Part shown: positions 1 through 56,680 of the stretch, piece by piece
Position numbering within the stretch: position 1 is the first letter of the stretch
Layout of the letters: the number at the start of each line of letters is the position of its first letter
NCBI GenBank assembly: GCA_023247235.1
Contig: JAHFGW010000001.1
Coordinates: 64,586 to 128,114 of the forward strand
DNA length: 63,529 nt
Source: Candidatus Omnitrophota bacterium
GTDB lineage: Bacteria > Omnitrophota > Gorgyraeia > Aquiviventales > Aquiviventaceae
Direction: 5' to 3'
Made by a program: the position numbers and the translations under genes
The notes under the pieces: model-generated
The model's input: only the letters and a program-made list of their open reading frames with translations
Told to the model about the DNA's origin: nothing
Database searches by the model: none

Positions 1-636
<636 letters not shown>

Positions 637-9224: not shown

Positions 9225-10075
9225 AGCCGTGCTCGATCGCACCAGCACGGACGACGGATGCCACGCTGGCGCGCATCCGGGAGCGGTTCCGGGGATTAGA
9301 CAAGGTCCTTGTCGCGTACTCGGGTGGCGTCGACTCCACGTTGCTTGCCTATGTGGCTCGCATGATACTTGGCCCCCAACGCGTCCTGGCGGTGACGGCG
9401 GACTCTCCCTCGATTGCGCGCGCCGACCTGGCCGAGGCCGTTCAGGTTGCGGACCTGCTTGGGGTGCCGCATGAGGTCATCGCGACGAGCGAGGTGTCAC
9501 GCCAGGCCTATCGAGCGAACACGGCGGCCCGCTGCTATTGGTGCAAGTCAGAGCTGTTCGAGCGGCTCGACGAGCTGGCGCAGATGCGGCAGTTCGACGC
9601 CGTTCTCTATGGCGCGATCGGGGATGATCGGCTCCAGGAGCGGCCGGGACAGCGCGCGGCCTTGGAGCATCGCGTGCGCGCGCCGCTACAGGAGGCGGGG
9701 TTGAGCAAGGCGGAGATTCGAGACCTCGCGCGCCGCCTGGGGGTCCCCAACTGGGACCGCCCTCAGAATGCCTGCCTGGCTTCGCGCATCCCGCACGGAA
9801 GCGAAGTGACGGAGGCGAAGCTCGGCCAGGTGGAGCAAGCGGAGGCCTTCTTGCGCAGTCACGGGTTCGTGCAGGTTCGCGTGCGGCACCTGGGGTTGCG
9901 GGCACGCATCGAGGTTGAGCCTGAGGGCGTCGCGCGCTTCACGGACGTCGAGCTGCGACGCCAGGTCGGCCGCGCGCTGCGGGGTTTGGGATTCGACATG
10001 ATCGAGGTGGATCGTGGCGGCTACCGGCCCGGCGGCGCCAACGATGTTCCAGGAGCGCCTCCACTTGTCCTGTGA
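9221..10075 (+). CDS. LarE-like PP-loop ATP pyrophosphatase (TIGR00268-type sulfur transferase family)
   Basis: VAYSGGVDSTLLA PP-loop and ACLASRIP motif. ATG 9221 forms an ATGA overlap with the mnmA stop. Confidence 0.75.
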   Translation: MKPCSIAPARTTDATLARIRERFRGLDKVLVAYSGGVDSTLLAYVARMILGPQRVLAVTADSPSIARADLAEAVQVADLLGVPHEVIATSEVSRQAYRANTAARCYWCKSELFERLDELAQMRQFDAVLYGAIGDDRLQERPGQRAALEHRVRAPLQEAGLSKAEIRDLARRLGVPNWDRPQNACLASRIPHGSEVTEAKLGQVEQAEAFLRSHGFVQVRVRHLGLRARIEVEPEGVARFTDVELRRQVGRALRGLGFDMIEVDRGGYRPGGANDVPGAPPLVL

Positions 10076-10120
10076 AGGTTTGTGGAAGGTGCGGGGTGAA
10101 AGGTGTAGGGTGAAGGGTCG
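10072..10120 (+). repeat. single-armed heptamer array H2 (AAGGTGC GGGGTGA AAGGTGT AGGGTGA AGGGTCG)
   Basis: A GGTG core recurs every 7 nt immediately after the larE-like stop. I found no complementary array downstream. Confidence 0.55.
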
Positions 10121-10150: not shown

Positions 10151-10200
10151 AGGAAAGGGATGGTTCTCCAGGAAGGGAAAACTTCGTTTTCCCTTCCTGG
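10151..10200 (+). repeat. AGGAAAGGGATGGTT box followed by a perfect hairpin CCAGGAAGGGAAAAC-TTC-GTTTTCCCTTCCTGG
   Basis: 15-bp perfect stem read from the sequence. A near-identical copy lies at 17594-17640 and a variant palindrome at 17732-17759. Confidence 0.8.
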
Positions 10201-10259: not shown

Positions 10260-10332
10260 GGCGGTGTAGCTCAGTTGGCAGAGCAGCGGACTCATAAGCC
10301 GCGGGTCACAGGTTCGAATCCTGTCACCGCCA
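10260..10332 (+). tRNA. tRNA-Met (anticodon CAT, elongator-like); CCA not encoded
   Basis: Hand-folded cloverleaf GGCGGTG/TA/GCTC-AGTTGGCA-GAGC/A/GCGGA-CTCATAA-GCCGC(one mismatch)/GGGTC/ACAGG-TTCGAAT-CCTGT/CACCGCC/A. The T arm and variable loop resemble elongator Met. An Ile2 (lysidine) identity cannot be excluded by eye. Confidence 0.85.
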
Positions 10333-17584: not shown

Positions 17585-17640
17585 TTTCCTTTCAGGAAAG
17601 GGATGGTTTCAAGGAAGGGAAAACTTCGTTTTCCCTTCCT
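17585..17640 (+). repeat. small hairpin TTTCCT-TTC-AGGAAA, AGGAAAGGGATGGTT box and perfect hairpin AGGAAGGGAAAAC-TTC-GTTTTCCCTTCCT
   Basis: Second copy of the element at 10151-10200. Confidence 0.8.
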
Positions 17641-17731: not shown

Positions 17732-17759
17732 AGGAGGGAAAACCTAGGTTTTCCCTCCT
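17732..17759 (+). repeat. 28-nt perfect palindrome AGGAGGGAAAACCTAGGTTTTCCCTCCT (variant of the GGAAGGGAAAAC hairpin)
   Basis: Read directly from the sequence. It is preceded at 17676-17697 by an AGGAAAGGGAGACCAGGGAG box that resembles the box in the other two copies. Confidence 0.75.
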
Positions 17760-17792: not shown

Positions 17793-17863
17793 GCGGGCAT
17801 AGCACAGTGGTAGTGCACCAGTTTTCCAAACTGGCTACGCGGGTTCGATTCCCGCTGCCCGCT
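17793..17863 (+). tRNA. tRNA-Gly (anticodon TCC)
   Basis: GCGGGCA/TA/GCAC-AGTGGTA-GTGC/A/CCAGT-TTTCCAA-ACTGG/CTAC/GCGGG-TTCGATT-CCCGC/TGCCCGC/T. Confidence 0.9.
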
Positions 17864-18623: not shown

Positions 18624-19814
18624 ATGGCCAAAGCCAAATTCGAACGGACCAAGCCCCACGTGAACATCGGCACGATCGGCCACGTCGATCACGGCAAGAC
18701 GACCCTGACCTCCGCGATCACCAAGGTCCTCGCCCGCGCCGGCCTGGCCCAGGCGCGCAGCTACGAGGAGATCGACAACGCCCCCGAGGAGCGCGAGCGC
18801 GGGGTGACGATCAACGTCCACCACGCCGAGTACGAGACCCCGGCGCGCCACTACGCCCATGTCGACTGCCCGGGCCATGCCGACTACATCAAGAACATGA
18901 TCACCGGCGCCGCCCAGATGGACGGCGCCATCCTGGTCGTCTCCGCGGTCGATGGGCCCATGCCCCAGACCCGTGAGCACATCCTCCTGGGCCGCCAGGT
19001 CGGCCTGCCCACGATCGTCGTCTTCCTCAATAAGGTCGATGCGGTCGAAGACCCGGAGCTCTTGGACCTCGTCGAGCTGGAGGTCCGGGAGCTCTTGACC
19101 AAGTACGGCTTCCCGGGGGAGAAGACCCCGATCATCCGCGGCTCGGCCCTGCTCGCCGCCCAGGGCGACCAGGGGGAGCTGGGCGAGCCGGCCATCACGA
19201 AGCTCCTGGCCGCGGTGGACACCGCCATCCCCACCCCCACGCGCGACATCGAGCGGCCCTTCCTCATGTCGGTCGAAGATGTCTTCTCGATCACCGGCCG
19301 CGGCACCGTGGGGACCGGCCGCGTGGAGCGCGGCAAGGTCACCGTGGGCCAGGAGGTGGAGATCGTCGGCCTCAAGGCGACCAGCAAGTCCGTCGTGACC
19401 GGCATTGAGATGTTCCGCAAGCTCCTGGAGGAGGGCATCGCCGGAGACAACCTGGGGGTCCTGCTGCGCGGCCTCGAGAAAGCGGACCTGCAGCGGGGCA
19501 TGGTCCTGGCCGCCCCGGGCACGATCACCCCGCATACGACCTTCACGGCCGAGGTCTACTGCCTCACGAAAGAAGAAGGCGGCCGCCACACCCCCTTCTT
19601 TAAGGGCTACCGCCCGCAGTTCTACTTCCGCACGACCGATGTGACCGGCGCGGTCACCTTGCCCGAGAAGACCGAGATGGTCATGCCGGGGGATAACATC
19701 CGCGTGACGGTCGAGCTCATCCAGCCCATCGCCATGGAGAAAGAGCAGCGCTTCGCCATCCGCGAAGGCGGCAAGACCGTCGGGGCGGGCGTCATCACGG
19801 AGATCCTCAAGTGA
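18624..19814 (+). CDS. tuf: elongation factor Tu, copy 1
   Basis: [18 protein letters not shown] and NKVD GTPase motifs, 396 aa. Identical to the product of 34302..35492. Confidence 0.97.
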
Positions 19815-19859
19815 GGGTCGGGCGCACCCCGAACCCCGAACCCCGAACCCCGAACTAAC
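19815..19859 (+). repeat. short bulged stem (GGGTCGGG/CCCCGAACCC) plus CCCCGAA x4 heptamer array (H3a)
   Basis: CCCCGAA at 19827, 19834, 19841 and 19848. Duplicated at 35493-35537. Confidence 0.75.
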
Positions 19860-20012
19860 ATGGCGCAGGATCAAGTGACGCTGGCCTGCACCGATTGCCA
19901 GCGGCGGAACTACCACACGAGCAAGAACAAGCGCAACGTGACGGATCGGCTCCAGCTGCGGCGGTACTGCAAGTGGTGCCGGAAGCATACGTCGCACAAA
20001 GAAACCAAGTAA
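19860..20012 (+). CDS. rpmG: 50S ribosomal protein L33 (zinc-ribbon form)
   Basis: Hand translation [50 protein letters not shown]. It is below the length cut-off of the ORF track. Confidence 0.9.
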
Positions 20013-31593: not shown

Positions 31594-31648
31594 GGGTGGC
31601 TGGAGGCGACGATCAAACCCTCCAGCCTCCAGCCTCGAGCCTCGAGCG
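31594..31648 (+). repeat. 9-bp stem (GGCTGGAGG/CCTCCAGCC) plus heptamer array CCTCCAG x2, CCTCGAG x2 (H4), followed by TTTTT
   Basis: Read directly from the sequence. It fills the rpsL|rpsG spacer. Confidence 0.7.
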
Positions 31649-31657
31649 GTTTTTACA

Positions 31658-34301: not shown

Positions 34302-35492
34302 ATGGCCAAAGCCAAATTCGAACGGACCAAGCCCCACGTGAACATCGGCACGATCGGCCACGTCGATCACGGCAAGACGACCCTGACCTCCGCGATCACC
34401 AAGGTCCTCGCCCGCGCCGGCCTGGCCCAGGCGCGCAGCTACGAGGAGATCGACAACGCCCCCGAGGAGCGCGAGCGCGGGGTGACGATCAACGTCCACC
34501 ACGCCGAGTACGAGACCCCGGCGCGCCACTACGCCCATGTCGACTGCCCGGGCCATGCCGACTACATCAAGAACATGATCACCGGCGCCGCCCAGATGGA
34601 CGGCGCCATCCTGGTCGTCTCCGCGGTCGATGGGCCCATGCCCCAGACCCGTGAGCACATCCTCCTGGGCCGCCAGGTCGGCCTGCCCACGATCGTCGTC
34701 TTCCTCAATAAGGTCGATGCGGTCGAAGACCCGGAGCTCTTGGACCTCGTCGAGCTGGAGGTCCGGGAGCTCTTGACCAAGTACGGCTTCCCGGGGGAGA
34801 AGACCCCGATCATCCGCGGCTCGGCCCTGCTCGCCGCCCAGGGCGACCAGGGGGAGCTGGGCGAGCCGGCCATCACGAAGCTCCTGGCCGCGGTGGACAC
34901 CGCCATCCCCACCCCCACGCGCGACATCGAGCGGCCCTTCCTCATGTCGGTCGAAGATGTCTTCTCGATCACCGGCCGCGGCACCGTGGGGACCGGCCGC
35001 GTGGAGCGCGGCAAGGTCACCGTGGGCCAGGAGGTGGAGATCGTCGGCCTCAAGGCGACCAGCAAGTCCGTCGTGACCGGCATTGAGATGTTCCGCAAGC
35101 TCCTGGAGGAGGGCATCGCCGGAGACAACCTGGGGGTCCTGCTGCGCGGCCTCGAGAAAGCGGACCTGCAGCGGGGCATGGTCCTGGCCGCCCCGGGCAC
35201 GATCACCCCGCATACGACCTTCACGGCCGAGGTCTACTGCCTCACGAAAGAAGAAGGCGGCCGCCACACCCCCTTCTTTAAGGGCTACCGCCCGCAGTTC
35301 TACTTCCGCACGACCGATGTGACCGGCGCGGTCACCTTGCCCGAGAAGACCGAGATGGTCATGCCGGGGGATAACATCCGCGTGACGGTCGAGCTCATCC
35401 AGCCCATCGCCATGGAGAAAGAGCAGCGCTTCGCCATCCGCGAAGGCGGCAAGACCGTCGGGGCGGGCGTCATCACGGAGATCCTCAAGTGA
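34302..35492 (+). CDS. tuf: elongation factor Tu, copy 2
   Basis: Protein identical to copy 1. Confidence 0.97.
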
Positions 35493-35537
35493 GGGTCGGG
35501 CGCACCCCGAACCCCGAACCCCGAACCCCGAACTAAC
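35493..35537 (+). repeat. CCCCGAA x4 heptamer array (H3b)
   Basis: Identical to 19815-19859. Confidence 0.75.
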
Positions 35538-35846
35538 ATGGCGCAGGCACCGAAGATTCGCATTAAGCTGAAGGCCTATGACCACCGCCTCCTGGACCAG
35601 TCGGCGGGAGAGATCATCCAGACGGTCCGGCGGACTGGGGCGCGCGTGGCCGGCCCGATCCCGCTGCCGTCAAAGCGGGAGCTCTATACCGTGTTGCGCT
35701 CGCCCGTGATCGACAAGAAGGCGCGCGAGCAGTTTCAAATCGTGACGCACAAGCGGCTCCTGGAGATCCTGGAGCCGACATCCAAGACTATCGACGCGCT
35801 CCGCAAGCTCAATCTTCCATCGGGCGTCTACGTAGAGGTCAGATGA
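35538..35846 (+). CDS. rpsJ: 30S ribosomal protein S10
   Basis: [16 protein letters not shown] start, 102 aa. Confidence 0.96.
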
Positions 35847-35851
35847 GGTTT

Positions 35852-35922
35852 TAGCGTATAGCGGGTAGCGTTCAGCGTACAGAATCCGTATACGCTAAAC
35901 GCTATACGCTGCACGCTAGACG
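35852..35922 (+). repeat. heptamer-array hairpin H5 (TAGCGTA TAGCGGG TAGCGTT CAGCGTA / loop / ACGCTAA ACGCTAT ACGCTGC ACGCTAG)
   Basis: Four heptamers per arm, with about 23 of 28 positions complementary by hand alignment. It fills the rpsJ|rplC spacer. Confidence 0.8.
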
Positions 35923-37649: not shown

Positions 37650-38479
37650 TGGGCGTGAAGACGCATCGCCCGACCAGCGCCGGCAGGCGCTTTGCGGTCA
37701 CCGCGGATTTCACCGAGCTGACGACCAAGCGACCGCAGAAGTCTCTCACGGTGCCGCTGCCAGGCACCGGGGGCCGCAACGCCCACGGACACGTCACGTC
37801 GCGGTTCCGCGGAGGCGGGCATAAACGGCTCTACCGCTTAATCGATTTTTATCGGCGGGACCGGGCGGGCGTAGGCGGCACCGTCCTGGGCATCGAGTAT
37901 GATCCGAATCGCTCGGCGCGCATTGCGCTGATCGAATACGCGGACCGCCAACGCCGCTACATTCTCTGGCCCGAGGGTCTCGCCGTAGGAGAGGCGGTGG
38001 GCGCGGGGGATGACGCGGAGCTGAAACTGGGCAACGCCCTGCCGCTGCGGCGGATTCCCGCCGGGCTGCCGATTCACAATCTCGAGCTGCACCGCAATCG
38101 CGGAGGGCAAATCGTGCGGAGCGCCGGATCCTCCGCCACGATTCAGGCGAAGGAGGGTGACCTGGCGCACGTGCGGCTGCCTTCAGGCGAAGTGCGCATC
38201 GTGCACCTGGAGTGCTGGGCGACGGTCGGCCAGGTTGGCAACATCGAGCATAAGTCGCTCGTCTATGGGAAAGCCGGCCGCTCGCGCTGGAAGGGGCGCA
38301 TGCCTCACGTGCGAGGCGTCGCGATGAACCCGGTCGATCACCCCCATGGCGGCGGCGAAGGCAAGTCCGGCCAAGGCAATCCCCACCCGGTGTCGCCCTG
38401 GGGCTGGCATACGAAAGGTCGCAAGACCCGCAACCGCCGGAAATATTCGCGCCGGTGGATCGCCAGCCGCCGCCCGTAA
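37649..38479 (+). CDS. rplB: 50S ribosomal protein L2
   Basis: GGGHKRLYR and [13 protein letters not shown] blocks. Confidence 0.96.
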
Positions 38480-38482
38480 CGA

Positions 38483-38570
38483 TGTGTAATGTCCAATGTG
38501 TCGTGTGTAATGGATAAGGTGCGCACGATGCGTGTTTTCCCATTACACAGTACACGTGACACATTACACA
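38483..38570 (+). repeat. heptamer-array hairpin H6 (TGTGTAA TGTCCAA TGTGTCG TGTGTAA TGG / 26-nt loop / CCA TTACACA GTACACG TGACACA TTACACA)
   Basis: Hand pairing gives 26 of 31 positions paired, including one G-U. It fills the rplB|rpsS spacer and is followed by GAGGAG and the ATG. Confidence 0.85.
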
Positions 38571-38590: not shown

Positions 38591-38926
38591 ATGGGACGCT
38601 CAGCGAAAAAAGGCGCGTTCGTGGATGAGTCGGTGCTGCGCAAAATCGCGCGGGCGCGGCAGGCGAACGACCGCAAACCCATCAAAACGTGGTCGCGGCG
38701 CTCGACCGTGACGCCCGACTTTGTGGGGATGAACTTCCTGGTCCACAACGGCAAGGGATTTCAGCCCGTCTACGTCAGCGAGCACATGGTGGGGCATTGC
38801 CTGGGAGAGTTCGCCCCGACGCGCGTCTTCAGGCGCCACGGCGGCGTGAAGAAGGCCGAGGCGCCCGGCGGCGCGCCGGCTCCGGCCGCGGCGGCCGGCG
38901 GCGGCGCGGGCGCTCCCGGAAAGTGA
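38591..38926 (+). CDS. rpsS: 30S ribosomal protein S19 (Ala/Gly/Pro tail)
   Basis: [10 protein letters not shown]...[14 protein letters not shown] block. Confidence 0.95.
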
Positions 38927-41816: not shown

Positions 41817-41880
41817 TGTGTAATGTTCAATGTGTAACGTGTAATGGTCAGGAGCTTGAGGGGAGCATTACACAGAATGC
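41817..41880 (+). repeat. asymmetric heptamer element H7 (TGTGTAA TGTTCAA TGTGTAA CGTGTAA TGG ... single TTACACA unit)
   Basis: Four left-arm heptamers face only one complementary unit (41868-41874), plus a local GCATT/AATGC stem. It lies in the rplX|rplE spacer. Confidence 0.7.
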
Positions 41881-48572: not shown

Positions 48573-48662
48573 TGTGTAATGTGTAACGTGTAATGCAAGA
48601 GCCGTAATCCAGGTGTTCACGAACGGCAGTTCCATTACACATGACACCTTACACATTACACA
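48573..48662 (+). repeat. heptamer-array hairpin H8 (TGTGTAA TGTGTAA CGTGTAA / 38-nt loop / TTACACA TGACACC TTACACA TTACACA)
   Basis: Read directly from the sequence. It fills the rpmJ|rpsM spacer and is followed by GAGGAG and the ATG. Confidence 0.85.
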
Positions 48663-49093: not shown

Positions 49094-49606
49094 ATGCTCT
49101 CAGAGACGCCACAAGACGCGCCAACGCCTGAATCCCCTGAACCCGAGAAGGCCCAGCCCCCCAAAGCTGATGCGCCATCCGCCGCAAGCCCCGCGACAGC
49201 CGAGGCAAGCAAGGACGCCGAGCGGCCGGCCCGGAAGACCAAGGGCAAGCGCAAGCTCCAAGTCACCCAAGGCATCGCGCATATCCTTGCCTCCTTCAAC
49301 AATACCGTGGTGACCATCACGGACCGGCAGGGCAATACGATCGCGTGGAGCACGGCTGGCAGCAGCGGCTTCAAGGGATCCCGCAAATCTACGCCGTACG
49401 CGGCCCAGATCGCCGCCATGAACGCGGCCAAGAAGGCCCTTGAAATGGGATTGAAGGAAGTCGAAGTCTTCGTCAAAGGTCCAGGGCAAGGCCGGGAATC
49501 GGCGATCCGATCCCTCTCGCAGGCCGGCCTGACGGTGACCGCGATCCGCGATGTGACGCCTATTCCGCATAATGGCTGCCGCCCCCCGAAGCGAAGGCGC
49601 GTGTGA
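49094..49606 (+). CDS. rpsK: 30S ribosomal protein S11 with about 45-aa Pro/Ala/Glu N-terminal extension
   Basis: uS11 core ([18 protein letters not shown]...). The upstream 45 codons are low complexity. Confidence 0.9.
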
Positions 49607-49625: not shown

Positions 49626-49700
49626 TCAGCGGATAGCGTTGAGCGTTCAGCGTATAGGAGGGCCCAAACTATACGCTCTACGCTCTACGCTCTACGCTAA
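49626..49700 (+). repeat. heptamer-array hairpin H9 (TCAGCGG ATAGCGT TGAGCGT TCAGCGT ATAG / loop / CTATACG CTCTACG x3 CTAA)
   Basis: Same AGCGT/ACGCT unit family as H5. It lies in the rpsK|rpsD spacer. Confidence 0.85.
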
Positions 49701-51925: not shown

Positions 51926-53100
51926 CCGCGCTCACCCTGCCTGAACGCCTTCGCGACGTCGAAGGCTCACCCACGCTTGCCCTGGCCGCCAAGGCCAAGG
52001 CGCTGGCCAACGCCGGCAAGCCGGTCTTGGATTTTACGGCCGGCGAGCCGGATTTTCCGACGCCGGATCCCGTCAAGCGTGCAGGCATCCGGGCGATCGA
52101 GTCGAATCAGACCCGCTATACCCCGGTCGCAGGATTACCCGAGCTGCGGGCCGCCGTCGCCCAGCAGGTCAACCGGACCCGGCACACGAACTATTCCGCT
52201 GCCCACGTGCTGGTGAGCTGCGGCGCCAAGCACGCGCTCTTTAACGTCTTCCAGGCGCTGTGCCAACCGGGCGACGAAGTCATCCTGCTCAGCCCGTATT
52301 GGGTCAGCTTTCCGGCGCTGGTCCGTTTGGCAGGCGCCAAGCCGGTGATTGTGCCGACACAGGAGGCGGACGGCTTCCAGCCGGATCTTGCGGCGATCCG
52401 CAACGCGATATCCGGCGCGACCAAAGCGCTCGTCATCAACAGCCCGAGCAACCCGACCGGCGCCGTCGTCTCCAAGGCTCGACTGGAGGCGTTGGCCGCC
52501 CTGGCGCTGGAGCGGCACCTGGTCGTGATCAGCGATGAGATTTACGACGAACTCGTCTACCCGCCGGCCGCCCATCGCTCTATCACGCAACTCAACCCGC
52601 AGATGGCGGATTGCACCGTGCTCATCGGCGGGGTCTCCAAGACCTACAGCATGACCGGGTGGCGGATTGGGTGGGCCGTCGGCCCGGAACCGCTCGTCGA
52701 GGCCATGACGACGCTGCAGAGCCATTCGACGTCGAATCCCACGTCCATCAGCCAGCATGCGGCCTTGGCCGCGCTGACCGGCGAGCAATCCTCTGTTGCG
52801 GCGATGCGAAAGGAATTCCTGGCTCGCCGTGACCGGCTGGTCCAGGGCCTGGCTGCGCTCCCCGGGTTGCGTGTCAAGACACCCGAGGGAGCGTTCTATG
52901 CGTGGTGCAATGTCCGTGGCCTGGGGCAGTCGGCCCAGGCCACCGCGCAACAGTGGTTGGACGAGGCGCTCGTGGCGACGGTCCCCGGCGAAGGATTCGG
53001 GTCCTCCGAGCACATCCGCTTCAGCTTTGCGACGAGCCTGCAGACGATTGACGACGCGTTGCGGCGGCTCGACAGCTGGTGCCGCAAACGGAGTTCATAG
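51889..53100 (+). CDS. aspartate/aromatic aminotransferase, class I PLP enzyme
   Basis: DFTAGEPDFPTP, NSPSNPTG and SKTYSMTGWRIGW (PLP lysine) motifs. The start is GTG 51889 or TTG 51922. Confidence 0.85.
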   Translation: MDAQAIASTRALTALTLPERLRDVEGSPTLALAAKAKALANAGKPVLDFTAGEPDFPTPDPVKRAGIRAIESNQTRYTPVAGLPELRAAVAQQVNRTRHTNYSAAHVLVSCGAKHALFNVFQALCQPGDEVILLSPYWVSFPALVRLAGAKPVIVPTQEADGFQPDLAAIRNAISGATKALVINSPSNPTGAVVSKARLEALAALALERHLVVISDEIYDELVYPPAAHRSITQLNPQMADCTVLIGGVSKTYSMTGWRIGWAVGPEPLVEAMTTLQSHSTSNPTSISQHAALAALTGEQSSVAAMRKEFLARRDRLVQGLAALPGLRVKTPEGAFYAWCNVRGLGQSAQATAQQWLDEALVATVPGEGFGSSEHIRFSFATSLQTIDDALRRLDSWCRKRSS

Positions 53101-53228
53101 TTCATAGTTCATAGTTCATAGTTCGTAGTTCGGTGTTCGGTGCGGATGAGCTTCAGACTGATCTCGCTCGGAGATACTCTAGCATTGCCCTTACTATGAA
53201 CTACGAACAATGAACACCGAACGAATGA
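53092..53228 (+). repeat. heptamer-array hairpin H10 (AGTTCAT x4, AGTTCGT, AGTTCGG, TGTTCGG / 48-nt loop / CTATGAA CTACGAA CAATGAA CACCGAA CGAATGA)
   Basis: Seven left and five right heptamers. The array starts inside the last codons of the aminotransferase and ends 1 nt before the icd ATG. Confidence 0.85.
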
Positions 53229-56569: not shown

Positions 56570-56680
56570 TGTGTTATGTGTAAGGTGTAAGGTGTCATGT
56601 GCATGACCAAATTGAAGAGGCTCGTCCGCGATACCTGTTCGGTCGCATTACCTTACGCATTACGCATGTCACATTCAACA
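56570..56680 (+). repeat. heptamer-array hairpin H11 (TGTGTTA TGTGTAA GGTGTAA GGTGTCA TGTGCAT / loop / CATTACC TTACGCA TTACGCA TGTCACA TTCAACA)
   Basis: Same TGTGTAA/TTACACA unit family as H6-H8, but outside the ribosomal operons. Confidence 0.8.

What the first reader, a model, noticed from the sequence alone, without database searches (positions are those of the whole stretch)
38483..38570. Family of intercistronic hairpins whose arms are tandem heptamer arrays (archetype in the rplB|rpsS spacer)
At least 11 spacers contain low-GC elements with strict 7-nt periodicity. They lie at 496-636, 10072-10120, 19815-19859 (= 35493-35537), 31594-31648, 35852-35922, 38483-38570, 41817-41880, 48573-48662, 49626-49700, 53092-53228 and 56570-56680. 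Typically 3-7 GT-rich heptamers come straight after a stop codon, then a 10-58 nt loop, then a complementary AC-rich heptamer array that ends just before the next Shine-Dalgarno sequence and ATG. In the archetype, hand pairing gives 26 of 31 positions. The unit sequences fall into distinct families: TGTGTAA/TTACACA, TAGCGTN/NACGCTA, AGTTCAT/ATGAACT, CCCCGAA and CCTCCAG. The architecture and orientation (GT-rich arm first on the coding strand) are constant. Because the arms are periodic they can pair in several registers. Most GT-rich units contain TAA, TAG or TGA, and a 7-nt spacing places stops in all three frames. The only precedent I know is the heptameric STRR repeat class of heterocystous cyanobacteria. 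This paired-array hairpin form inside ribosomal operons of a GC-rich bacterium looks undescribed. Possible roles include RNase III or other processing sites, mRNA stabilisers, Rho-loading (C-rich, G-poor arm) or insulation of translation between cistrons.
Basis: partly seen in the sequence, partly recalled or inferred. Interest (0 to 1): 0.78.

Follow-up and report, generated by a model that had tools for sequence, protein, structure and literature searches.

The report
Heptamer-repeat hairpins between operon genes
The gaps between ribosomal-protein genes of this uncultured GC-rich Omnitrophota bacterium hold hairpin-forming pairs of 7-base tandem repeats; these are real and shared by the whole lineage, but they belong to a repeat class already seen in cyanobacteria and Xanthomonas whose function is still unknown.

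Summary
Period-7 arrays occur 17 times in the window against 0.8 expected, and 16 lie in gene junctions. No other period from 4 to 15 is enriched except the harmonic 14. Seven of 12 elements are full two-armed hairpins, six of them with z of -3.4 to -5.9; five are one-armed or weak.

The organism is a GC-rich Candidatus Omnitrophota. Thirteen of 18 related MAGs carry the same architecture in the same operons. Four or five have none and keep 1-15 nt junctions. Outgroups have none.

Arms are about 4.4 units (about 31 nt). Arm units are complementary at 6 of 7 or better in 21 of 32 adjacent array pairs (null 2.7%). The commonest state is one systematic mismatch per heptad.

Elements form families within a genome, recur at the same junctions across genomes, and are gained and lost quickly.

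Best reading: dispersed heptamer palindromes of the STRR type that behave like REP elements, co-transcribed as self-contained hairpins. Their physiological effect is inferred, not shown.

The parts
496..540 (+). E1 5' arm (AGTTCRT units followed by TGTGCAAGA-type units). It overlaps the hemB stop codon (502-504).
598..636 (+). E1 3' arm (ATGAACA/CCGAACA units). It lies inside the probable hemL N-terminal coding region.
10076..10120 (+). E2: single G-rich heptamer array directly after a stop codon, with no complementary arm.
19815..19855 (+). E3: GGGTCGGG partner plus (ACCCCGA)x4.3, ending 4 nt before the rpmG start. It is a copy of E5 inside the tuf duplication.
31596..31647 (+). E4 (rpsL|rpsG): short GGCTGGAGGC partner plus a (CCTCCAG/CCTCGAG)x4 array.
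35493..35533 (+). E5 (tuf|rpsJ): the same sequence as E3.
35852..35880 (+). E6 (rpsJ|rplC) 5' arm, TAGCGTN units.
   Evidence: (z -5.7)
35889..35922 (+). E6 3' arm, NACGCTA units. It shares a 17-mer, ACGCTGCACGCTAGACG, with the same junction in L008.
38483..38513 (+). E7 archetype (rplB|rpsS) 5' arm, TGTGTAA-type units. It starts 3 nt after the stop codon.
   Evidence: (26 of 31 paired, z -5.3)
38540..38570 (+). E7 3' arm, TTACACA-type units. It ends 20 nt before the rpsS ATG, with the GAGGAG Shine-Dalgarno sequence in between.
41817..41847 (+). E8 (rplX|rplE) 5' arm, nearly identical to the E7 5' arm.
41866..41875 (+). E8 truncated 3' arm (one TTACACA unit).
48573..48595 (+). E9 (rpmJ|rpsM) 5' arm, TGTGTAA x3.3. 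It starts 1 nt after the stop codon.
   Evidence: (z -4.7)
48633..48662 (+). E9 3' arm, nearly identical to the E7 3' arm.
49626..49656 (+). E10 (rpsK|rpsD) 5' arm, NAGCGTN units.
   Evidence: (z -5.9)
49670..49700 (+). E10 3' arm, TACGCTC x3.9.
53092..53142 (+). E11 5' arm, AGTTCAT x5.7 then GTTCGGT. Its first units supply the upstream stop codon (53098-53100).
   Evidence: (z -3.4)
53193..53228 (+). E11 3' arm, ATGAACN/CCGAACN units. It ends 1 nt before the next ATG.
56570..56605 (+). E12 5' arm, TGTGTAA/GGTGTAA units.
   Evidence: (z -4.9)
56644..56680 (+). E12 3' arm, CGCATTA/CCTTACG units.

Best explanation
These are heptameric simple-sequence-repeat palindromes of the STRR type. They behave like REP elements.

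Each element is a pair of complementary arrays of about four to five 7-nt units (about 31 nt per arm) around a short, unconstrained loop. Elements sit in co-directional gene junctions and usually start 0-5 nt after the upstream stop codon.

Within a genome they form a few sequence families. These are spread over many junctions and kept alike by a copy or conversion process acting on DNA. Single insertions come and go quickly, while the families persist across the GC-rich Omnitrophota clade.

Because they lie inside conserved ribosomal-protein operons, they must be transcribed as part of the polycistronic mRNA. There each folds on itself into a long imperfect stem, typically six pairs plus one mismatch per heptad. 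This leaves the neighbouring ribosome-binding site no less accessible than in element-free junctions.

The most likely consequence for the cell is the one known for REP-type intercistronic stem-loops: a barrier to 3'-to-5' exonucleases or a processing point that segments operon mRNA decay. There may also be some interference with termination at the adjacent stop codon.

Shown here: periodicity, pairing, position, family structure, clade distribution, turnover, and the unchanged predicted RBS accessibility.
Inferred: co-transcription, the DNA-level spreading mechanism, and any effect on mRNA stability or translation.
For: Period-7 enrichment is confined to junctions. Hairpin stability is z -3.4 to -5.9 for six elements.

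The same architecture is present in 13 of 18 related Omnitrophota MAGs and absent from outgroups. Empty and occupied orthologous junctions have unchanged protein termini: 1-15 nt spacers against 75-130 nt.

Arms are complementary at 6 of 7 or better in 21 of 32 adjacent array pairs, against a null of 2.7%. Copy number peaks at 4-4.6 units.

Intragenomic families: 12.8% of same-genome pairs share at least five 9-mers, against 1.2% background (p=1e-8). The E7/E8 5' arms and the E7/E9 3' arms are near-identical while their loops are unrelated.

The same junction in different genomes shares 9-mers in 10.2% of pairs against 1.2% (p=5e-6), although four-fold sites are saturated.

Turnover is fast. 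L013 and L014 (79% identity at four-fold sites) differ by presence or absence at rplN|rplX and rplV|rpsC.

Both strands fold almost equally well (-36.9 against -34.6 kcal/mol). The pairing is therefore mostly Watson-Crick, as expected for a DNA-level inverted repeat.

RBS opening energy equals that of controls. There is no terminator signature and no Rfam family.

The same kind of element (four-unit heptamer arrays, often in inverted pairs, close behind ORFs, transcribed, no function found) is documented in Xanthomonas and cyanobacteria (PMC4692102; PMC2670836). Thirty of 80 metagenome contigs fetched with one heptamer pattern also carry complementary array pairs, at GC 0.36-0.67.
Against: No transposase, no fixed-length target-site duplication and no conserved interior were found. 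The spreading mechanism is therefore unknown, and spread could be gene conversion or repeated local origin.

The narrow four-to-five-unit length mode and the repeated one-in-seven mismatch are not predicted by a purely selfish or slippage model. They hint at a constraint.

Arm sequences shared between genomes with saturated synonymous sites could reflect selection for a host function rather than family persistence.

No transcript data exist, so co-transcription, hairpin formation in vivo and any stabilising effect are unproven.

The preference for sense-strand folding is weak (33 of 54, p=0.04).

Only 63 kb of this genome and one operon region of its relatives were seen, so genome-wide dispersal is extrapolated.
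Confidence: 0.55

Rival explanations
1. Host-selected cis-regulatory RNA. The heptads are reiterated binding sites for a protein that reads about 7 nt per domain (a cold-shock-domain or S1-type OB fold, or an unknown factor). About four protomers bind per arm. The protein competes with hairpin formation to tune decay or translation of operon segments.
For: The length mode is tight at about 4.4 units whatever the G content: 72 of 86 arrays without G3/C3 runs fall in 3.5-5.0 units.
Some arm sequences, and even the position of the mismatch (ATTTTRG opposite CGAAAAT), are shared by L004, L007 and L008 and by two loci in L008, despite saturated four-fold sites.
One-armed arrays exist directly upstream of start codons that lack a Shine-Dalgarno sequence (E3/E5).
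Cold-shock proteins binding one protomer per heptamer are cited in PMC4679880.
Against: There are dozens of unrelated unit sequences per clade and at least five per genome, which one sequence-specific reader cannot explain.
Four to five relatives lack the elements altogether in the same essential operons.
The closely related pair L013/L014 shows gain and loss, and arms that diverge about as fast as neutral sites.
No candidate protein was examined.
Confidence: 0.15
2. A purely local mutational by-product. Replication slippage favours 7-nt units, and template switching within quasi-palindromes copies changes between arms. Arrays therefore grow in place from small seed hairpins. There is no mobility and no function.
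For: Over-representation of heptamers among bacterial SSRs has been ascribed to polymerase slippage (Mrazek 2007, as summarised in PMC4692102).
Each arm is homogenised internally, with the same mismatch repeated in every unit.
The 18-nt L013 rplV|rpsC spacer shares the loop hexamer CGAAAG with the 108-nt L014 element. This fits growth from, or collapse to, a small hairpin.
No target-site duplication was found.
Against: Local growth does not explain near-identical arms at different junctions of one genome, down to shared variant units (E7/E8/E9, p=1e-8).
It also does not explain the same families turning up in genomes whose synonymous sites are saturated.
Slippage alone predicts a broad, decaying length distribution, not a peak at 4-4.6 units with almost nothing above 5.5.
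Confidence: 0.15
3. A translational-coupling device. The stem holds the upstream stop and the downstream start together, or masks the start until the terminating ribosome melts the 5' arm. Cistrons therefore stay stoichiometrically coupled despite a spacer of about 100 nt.
For: Stems start 0-5 nt after the stop codon in about 35 of 50 elements and end a median of about 7 nt before the start.
About two thirds of downstream genes lack a good Shine-Dalgarno sequence.
Element-free relatives have overlapping or 1-15 nt junctions.
Coupling was proposed for hupS-hupL STRR hairpins (PMC2670836).
Against: Predicted RBS opening energy is the same as in element-free junctions (13.4 against 12.4 kcal/mol).
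Forcing open the 13 nt covered by a terminating ribosome lowers it by only 1.6 kcal/mol. The drop is at least 5 in 7 of 53 elements.
Shine-Dalgarno frequency is not significantly different from controls (17/54 against 110/258).
The 'bridging' version cannot be tested by computation.
Confidence: 0.07
4. A DNA-level non-B structure (G-quadruplex, i-motif or cruciform) that acts on replication, transcription or nucleoid organisation, as proposed for GGGAATC and GGGGAYT repeats.
For: E3/E5 is (ACCCCGA)x4.3. On the template strand this is four GGGG tracts with 3-nt loops. E2 is G-rich. This matches the class in PMC4692102.
Both strands fold equally well.
Against: Eighty-six of 97 arrays have no G3/C3 run, yet show the same four-unit mode.
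Long cruciforms are normally selected against, and no test at DNA level was possible.
Confidence: 0.05
5. Transcription terminators or attenuators, or Rho-loading sites, between cistrons.
For: The stems are long, and the 3' arms are C-rich and G-poor in most elements (C is richer in the 3' half in 42 of 50).
A small stem plus T5 lies at the end of E4 (31634-31655).
Against: No U-tract follows the hairpins. Terminator-like hits total 16 against 14.6 expected, and none coincides with a full element.
The elements sit inside operons whose downstream genes are essential.
The C-rich arm is paired in the predicted fold.
Confidence: 0.03

Closest known systems
GGGAATC heptameric SSRs of Xanthomonas (Rehm et al. 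2015, PMC4692102)
   Same: The host is GC-rich (about 65%). The unit is 7 nt and most arrays have four units. About 90% are intergenic. Arrays lie close behind the upstream ORF. There are 70-75 convergent (inverted) pairs per genome that can form stem-loops. They are transcribed, and their length and sequence vary between close species.
   Different: Xanthomonas has one dominant G-tract family, interpreted through G-quadruplexes. Here there are at least five families per genome, most without G-tracts. The paired form dominates. Elements fill whole intercistronic junctions of ribosomal operons.
Cyanobacterial STRR heptamers, including the hupS-hupL intergenic hairpin (Mazel et al. 1990, from my own knowledge; PMC2670836)
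   Same: Several heptamer families occur per genome. Arrays are tandem and intergenic, and some form hairpins between co-transcribed genes. Transcript stability or translational coupling has been proposed, and the function is unresolved.
   Different: The phylum is different and the genome is GC-rich. The unit sequences differ: none of CCCCAGT, TTGGTCA or CAACAGT is in the window, and the nearest is CTGGTCA in L021. Cyanobacterial arrays are often longer or composite.
TAACTGA direct repeats of Beggiatoaceae, cyanobacteria and Bacteroidetes (MacGregor 2015, PMC4679880)
   Same: Heptamer arrays lie in intergenic regions, including ribosomal-protein operons, and often end just before a start codon that lacks a Shine-Dalgarno sequence. 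E3/E5 resembles this.
   Different: Those are almost all direct, one-armed arrays of a single heptamer: 169 sets against one inverted repeat. Here complementary pairs are the rule.
REP/BIME (REPIN) elements of enterobacteria and pseudomonads (my own knowledge: Higgins/Newbury 1987; Bertels and Rainey 2011; Liang, Rudd and Deutscher 2015)
   Same: They are multi-copy extragenic imperfect palindromes inside operons and just after stop codons. They form species-specific families with presence/absence polymorphism. They are co-transcribed, and they are known to block 3' exonucleases and, within 15 nt of a stop codon, to disturb termination.
   Different: REP arms are not internally periodic, and the stems are shorter. 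REPs are linked to a RAYT transposase, which could not be looked for here.
Correia/nemis MITEs of Neisseria (my own knowledge)
   Same: Inverted-repeat elements are co-transcribed with neighbouring genes, and their hairpins are cut by RNase III.
   Different: Correia elements have a conserved interior, fixed TA target duplications and non-periodic terminal repeats. None of these is seen here.

Membership tests
Heptameric SSR / STRR-type repeats | Tandem array of a 7-nt unit, three or more copies | tested here: met
   TRF and the lag-7 scan give 17 segments against 0.8 expected. The copy-number mode is 4-4.6.
Heptameric SSR / STRR-type repeats | Strong bias to intergenic DNA, with many dispersed copies | tested here: met
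   Sixteen of 17 segments are in junctions, and there are 12 elements in 63.5 kb. The genome-wide count is extrapolated.
Heptameric SSR / STRR-type repeats | Occurrence as convergent (inverted) pairs able to form stem-loops, as in Xanthomonas and hupS-hupL | tested here: met
   Fifty-eight of 97 arrays are in complementary pairs. Twenty-one of 32 adjacent pairs match at 6 of 7 or better, against a null of 2.7%.
Heptameric SSR / STRR-type repeats | Canonical unit sequences (STRR1-3 CCCCAGT/TTGGTCA/CAACAGT; GGGAATC; TAACTGA) | tested here: not met
   The window units are TGTGTAA, TAGCGTN, AGTTCAT, ACCCCGA and CCTCCAG. The catalogue for the clade contains none of the canonical units exactly.
REP/REPIN elements | Short imperfect extragenic palindrome in multi-copy families specific to a lineage | tested here: met
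   Family structure within genomes gives p=1e-8. Imperfect stems are shown.
REP/REPIN elements | Cognate RAYT (Y1 transposase) gene in the genome | not testable with these tools
   Only 63 kb of this genome and about 13-20 kb of each relative were available. No transposase is present in them.
REP/REPIN elements | Non-periodic conserved arm sequence with a conserved head motif | tested here: not met
   The arms are internally periodic at 7 nt, and no motif is shared across families.
MITE (for example Correia, ERIC) | Fixed-length target-site duplication | tested here: inconclusive
   The longest flanking direct repeat averages 2.42 against 1.70 nt in shuffles, and no constant length appears. 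Element boundaries were taken from minimum-free-energy (MFE) stems and are imprecise.
MITE (for example Correia, ERIC) | Conserved internal sequence among copies | tested here: not met
   Loops of same-family elements (E7, E8, E9, E12) and of same-junction elements in other genomes cannot be aligned.
Intrinsic terminator | GC-rich stem followed directly by a U-tract | tested here: not met
   The scan finds 16 hits against 14.6 expected, and none is a full element. Only a small stem plus T5 lies at the end of E4.
G-quadruplex-forming heptamer repeats (Rehm et al.) | Four or more G3+ tracts at 7-nt spacing on one strand | tested here: not met
   This is met only by E3/E5 (template strand) and partly by E2. 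Eighty-six of 97 arrays in the clade lack G3/C3 runs.
Known RNA families (ribosomal-protein leaders and others) | A match to an Rfam covariance model at its gathering score | tested here: not met
   Only tRNAs pass the threshold. Sub-threshold hits are to miRNA-precursor hairpins.

The most novel reading that the evidence does not exclude
The four-heptad, six-pairs-plus-one-mismatch hairpin may be a selected, cross-phylum 'operon punctuation' element. It would be read by a molecular ruler with heptad periodicity: a protein or nuclease that measures about four 7-nt steps. The families conserved across saturated divergence would then be its cognate sites. This would give STRR-type repeats, unexplained since 1990, a defined function.
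Probability: 0.15. Interest if true: 0.8.

Novelty: new member of a known kind. Interest (0 to 1): 0.5.

Why it matters
Heptamer tandem repeats have been known in bacteria for more than thirty years without a function or an origin. This lineage is an unusually clean comparative series. The same essential, collinear ribosomal operons exist with and without the elements in related genomes, and the insertion points are exact.

Three points bear on the open question:
- The preference for four units holds for units that cannot form G-quadruplexes, which undercuts the explanation published for Xanthomonas.
- The two arms usually differ at one fixed position per heptad.
- Families persist while single insertions turn over.

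A pattern scan also shows that paired heptamer arrays are common in environmental contigs across a wide GC range. The class is therefore probably much broader than the literature suggests.

Tried and rejected
1. Orientation test. I meant to use contigs with genes on both strands, then saw that an inverted repeat has no G-rich-first orientation. The only strand-sensitive measures are weak: G-U against A-C is 139 against 114, and sense folding beats antisense in 33 of 54 (p=0.04).

2. An excess of G.G over C.C single mismatches in minimum-free-energy (MFE) folds (28 against 3) did not survive analysis of the consensus units, one count per element. I dropped it.

3. Three-frame stop insulation was rejected.

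4. RBS masking or unmasking by the terminating ribosome was rejected. Shine-Dalgarno frequency is not different.

5. Terminators and known RNA families were rejected.

6. A fixed target-site duplication was not found.

7. Copy-number variation within the strain: none. L001-L003 are 99.97-100% identical to the window.

8. Extending the genome beyond the window failed. One end gene is not on record, and the other end gave only 1.2 kb more, all on the same strand.

9. I could not assign the metagenome contigs L086-L165 to taxa with the tools at hand. 'Widespread' therefore means a wide GC range, not named phyla.

The Liang 2015 REP paper was not in the held text and is cited from memory.
Full report
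**Observation.** The archetype at 38483-38570 reads TGTGTAA TGTCCAA TGTGTCG TGTGTAA TGG, then a 26-nt loop, then CCA TTACACA GTACACG TGACACA TTACACA. It lies between the rplB stop codon (38477-38479) and the rpsS ATG (38591).

I also scored self-match at a fixed lag in 21-nt windows. At 85% match there are six segments for period 7 and none for any other period from 4 to 15, and none in 20 Markov controls. At 71% there are 17 against 0.8 expected, and only the harmonic 14 is also enriched.

Sixteen of the 17 segments lie in or overlap gene junctions, which make up roughly 6% of the window. GC3-based gene calling puts every gene on the + strand.

Five further elements have z between -3.4 and -5.9.

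Five of the 12 elements are one-armed or weak:
- E2 (10076-10120) is a single G-rich array.
- E3 and E5 are a (ACCCCGA)x4.3 array with an 8-nt partner.
- E4 and E8 have a truncated second arm.

E1 has two arms but a weak fold score (z -1.2).

E3 and E5 are one sequence. They lie inside a 1246-nt perfectly identical tuf duplication that runs from the tuf ATG to 10 nt into the next gene.

**Organism and relatives.** RplB finds its best matches, at 67-75% identity, in GC-rich Candidatus Omnitrophota MAGs from groundwater (L004-L021). More distant hits are Kryptonia, Ignavibacteria, Bacteroidota and other Omnitrophota. Contigs of the same strain occur in three public metagenomes. They are 99.97-100% identical, with no unit-number differences.

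Thirteen of the 18 related MAGs carry paired heptamer arrays in the S10/spc region. L009, L012, L015 and L019 have none, and L005 has essentially none. Outgroups L022-L083 have none.

I mapped orthologous genes and tabulated every junction. Where there is no element the spacer is -4 to about 15 nt. Where there is one it is 75-130 nt. The flanking protein termini are unchanged.

Junctions occupied in many genomes are rpsJ|rplC, rplB|rpsS, rplV|rpsC and rpsH|rplF. Overlapping junctions such as rpmC|rpsQ are never occupied.

In the S10, spc and alpha operons of the window, every spacer of 45 nt or more holds an element, except the rpsM|rpsK gap, whose length depends on an uncertain rpsK start.

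**Anatomy.**
- *Arm length.* Period-7 arrays in the clade show a sharp copy-number mode at 4-4.6 units (median length 28 nt), with almost nothing above 5.5. Eighty-six of 97 arrays lack any G3 or C3 run and show the same mode.
- *Pairing.* Fifty-eight of 97 arrays have a complementary partner within 120 nt, and the median loop is 14 nt. The consensus units of adjacent arrays match as reverse complements at 6 of 7 or better in 21 of 32 cases. For randomly paired arrays the figure is 2.7%.
- *Mismatch.* The commonest state is 6 of 7 (17 of 29 pairs). The arms differ at one fixed position in every heptad, which gives six pairs plus one mismatch.
- *Position.* Stems begin 0-5 nt after the stop codon in about 35 of 50 elements and end a median of about 7 nt before the next start.
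- *Strand symmetry.* Both strands fold almost equally well: -36.9 against -34.6 kcal/mol, with sense better in 33 of 54 (p=0.04). G-U pairs number 139 against 114. The pairing is therefore mostly Watson-Crick.

1. 'GT-rich arm first on the coding strand' cannot be an orientation. The reverse complement of [arm][loop][rc arm] again starts with the same arm. It is a class of palindrome. Across the clade the G-rich arm comes first in 37 of 50 elements (p about 0.001), so the bias is real but not constant.
2. Stops in all three frames are not enriched. The first 35 nt close 1.07 frames on average, against 1.23 after shuffling.
3. Masking of the downstream RBS is not supported. The energy to open -15..+12 is 13.4 kcal/mol with elements and 12.4 in 257 element-free junctions. 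Forcing open the 13 nt covered by a terminating ribosome lowers it by only 1.6.
4. Good Shine-Dalgarno sequences are present in 17 of 54 downstream genes, against 110 of 258 controls.
5. There is no terminator signature. No Rfam family matches; only sub-threshold hits to miRNA-precursor hairpins appear.

**Evolution.** Four-fold degenerate sites are saturated between almost all genome pairs (38-58% identity in a GC3-rich background). The exception is L013-L014 at 79%.

Even so, elements at the same junction in different genomes share at least five 9-mers in 10.2% of pairs, against 1.2% for different junctions (p=5e-6). Elements at different junctions of one genome do so in 12.8% (p=1e-8). Examples:
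- W and L008 at rpsJ|rplC share the AGCGTN/ACGCT arms, including an identical 17-mer.
- L004, L007 and L008 at rplB|rpsS share ATTTTRG opposite CGAAAAT, including the purine-purine mismatch.
- In every case the loops cannot be aligned.

Within the window, the 5' arms of E7 and E8 and the 3' arms of E7 and E9 are near-identical down to their variant units.

Against long-term conservation of single insertions, the close pair L013/L014 differs by presence or absence at two junctions. The arms of their one shared element have diverged about as much as neutral sites.

So families persist and are kept homogeneous, while insertions turn over. No fixed target duplication was found.

**What is known.**
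- Cyanobacterial STRR heptamers are the classic case. Hairpin-forming STRRs between hupS and hupL have been described, with transcript stability or translational coupling suggested (PMC2670836).
- In GC-rich Xanthomonas, GGGAATC arrays mostly have four units and are about 90% intergenic. They lie on average 28 nt behind the upstream ORF. They occur as 70-75 inverted pairs per genome and are transcribed. They showed no regulatory effect. The authors linked the four-unit preference to G-quadruplexes and cited a polymerase-slippage idea for heptamers (PMC4692102).
- TAACTGA arrays in Beggiatoaceae are nearly all direct repeats just upstream of start codons (PMC4679880).
- I found no paper on such repeats in Omnitrophota.
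Thirty of the 80 loci fetched carry complementary array pairs, at GC 0.36-0.67. Arrays of other families on those contigs again peak at 4-4.5 units.

**Interpretation.** The elements are heptameric SSR palindromes of the STRR type in a new phylum, and they behave like REP elements. They are multi-copy families of extragenic imperfect palindromes that colonise co-directional junctions just after stop codons, with rapid gain and loss.

Inside essential, collinear operons they must be transcribed. I infer this from their position; it is not shown. Their self-contained fold explains why they are tolerated: predicted RBS accessibility is unchanged.

By analogy with REP stem-loops (my own knowledge: malE-malF stabilisation; REPs within 15 nt of a stop codon disturbing termination), the most likely effect is a barrier to 3' exonucleases or a processing point. 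There may also be a cost to termination of the upstream cistron.

Two features are not explained by a selfish or slippage model: the narrow four-unit mode without G-tracts, and the fixed mismatch once per heptad. They keep open a rival in which a heptad-periodic factor reads the arrays.

**Limits.** Transcript data, whole genomes and taxonomy for the metagenome hits were all unavailable. The mechanism that spreads the elements is unknown.

Noticed in passing
window 18624-19869 and 34302-35547: The two tuf copies are a 1246-nt block with 100% identity. It starts exactly at the ATG and runs through the 45-nt heptamer spacer to 10 nt into the downstream genes (rpmG and rpsJ, both starting ATGGCGCAGG). 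This implies recent gene conversion reaching beyond the coding sequence. Many related MAG contigs end about 2-3 kb upstream of rplB, near this position, probably because the repeat breaks assemblies.
   Followed up: partly
window 10171-10197, 17613-17639, variant 17733-17758: A perfect 27-nt hairpin, GGAAGGGAAAACTTCGTTTTCCCTTCC, occurs twice (0 expected by chance). A close variant occurs once. All lie 35-155 nt upstream of tRNA genes (tRNA-Met at 10260, tRNA-Gly at 17793). Both tRNA leaders also end in CTGNTGGTGCGAC. This may be a tRNA-operon leader or processing element, and it is unrelated to the heptamers.
   Followed up: partly
window 598-636 (E1 3' arm) and 592-1863 (hemL): Homology to solved HemL structures starts at residue 15 of the 553-start ORF. 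The gene therefore most likely starts at GTG 592 (or ATG 553), and the AC-rich heptamer array is translated as the N-terminal SYNEHRTPNNEL.
   Followed up: partly
window 496-504 and 53092-53100: In both AGTTCAT-family elements, the stop codon of the upstream gene is supplied by the array itself (AGT TCR TAG).
   Followed up: no
window 38854-38926 (3' end of rpsS): S19 is 111 aa and has a Gly/Ala-rich C-terminal tail encoded by GC-rich tandem repeats of period 10-30. Relatives show similar extensions of varying length.
   Followed up: no
window 49094-49606 (rpsK): The longest ORF for S11 has an N-terminal extension of about 40 aa, rich in Pro and Ala, before the conserved part. The true start is uncertain, so the rpsM|rpsK spacer length is uncertain too.
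   Followed up: no
L016 3168-3326 (rplB|rpsS junction): A 159-nt hairpin (dG -80.8) has arms built from repeats of about 10 nt (AGAAGGCTTG-like) rather than 7 nt. Periodic-arm palindromes in this clade are therefore not strictly heptameric.
   Followed up: no
L020 367-599 (rpsJ|rplC junction): An N-run assembly gap sits inside a heptamer element with nine copies of TCGCTGG. These repeats cause scaffolding gaps in MAGs, so censuses from draft genomes will undercount them.
   Followed up: no
L013 3212-3229 against L014 11532-11639 (rplV|rpsC): The 18-nt element-free spacer of L013 contains the same CGAAAG hexamer that forms the loop of the 108-nt L014 element. It is flanked by short GC-rich complementary bases. 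This may be a seed or a remnant hairpin.
   Followed up: partly
L086-L165 (metagenome contigs): Several contigs are very rich in heptamer arrays of many families, for example L134 (6 segments in 2 kb, GC 0.37), L095, L120, L123 and L148. Some carry composite arrays of different heptamers side by side. L120 contains STRR1-like AGTCCCC arrays. Their taxonomy is unknown.
   Followed up: partly
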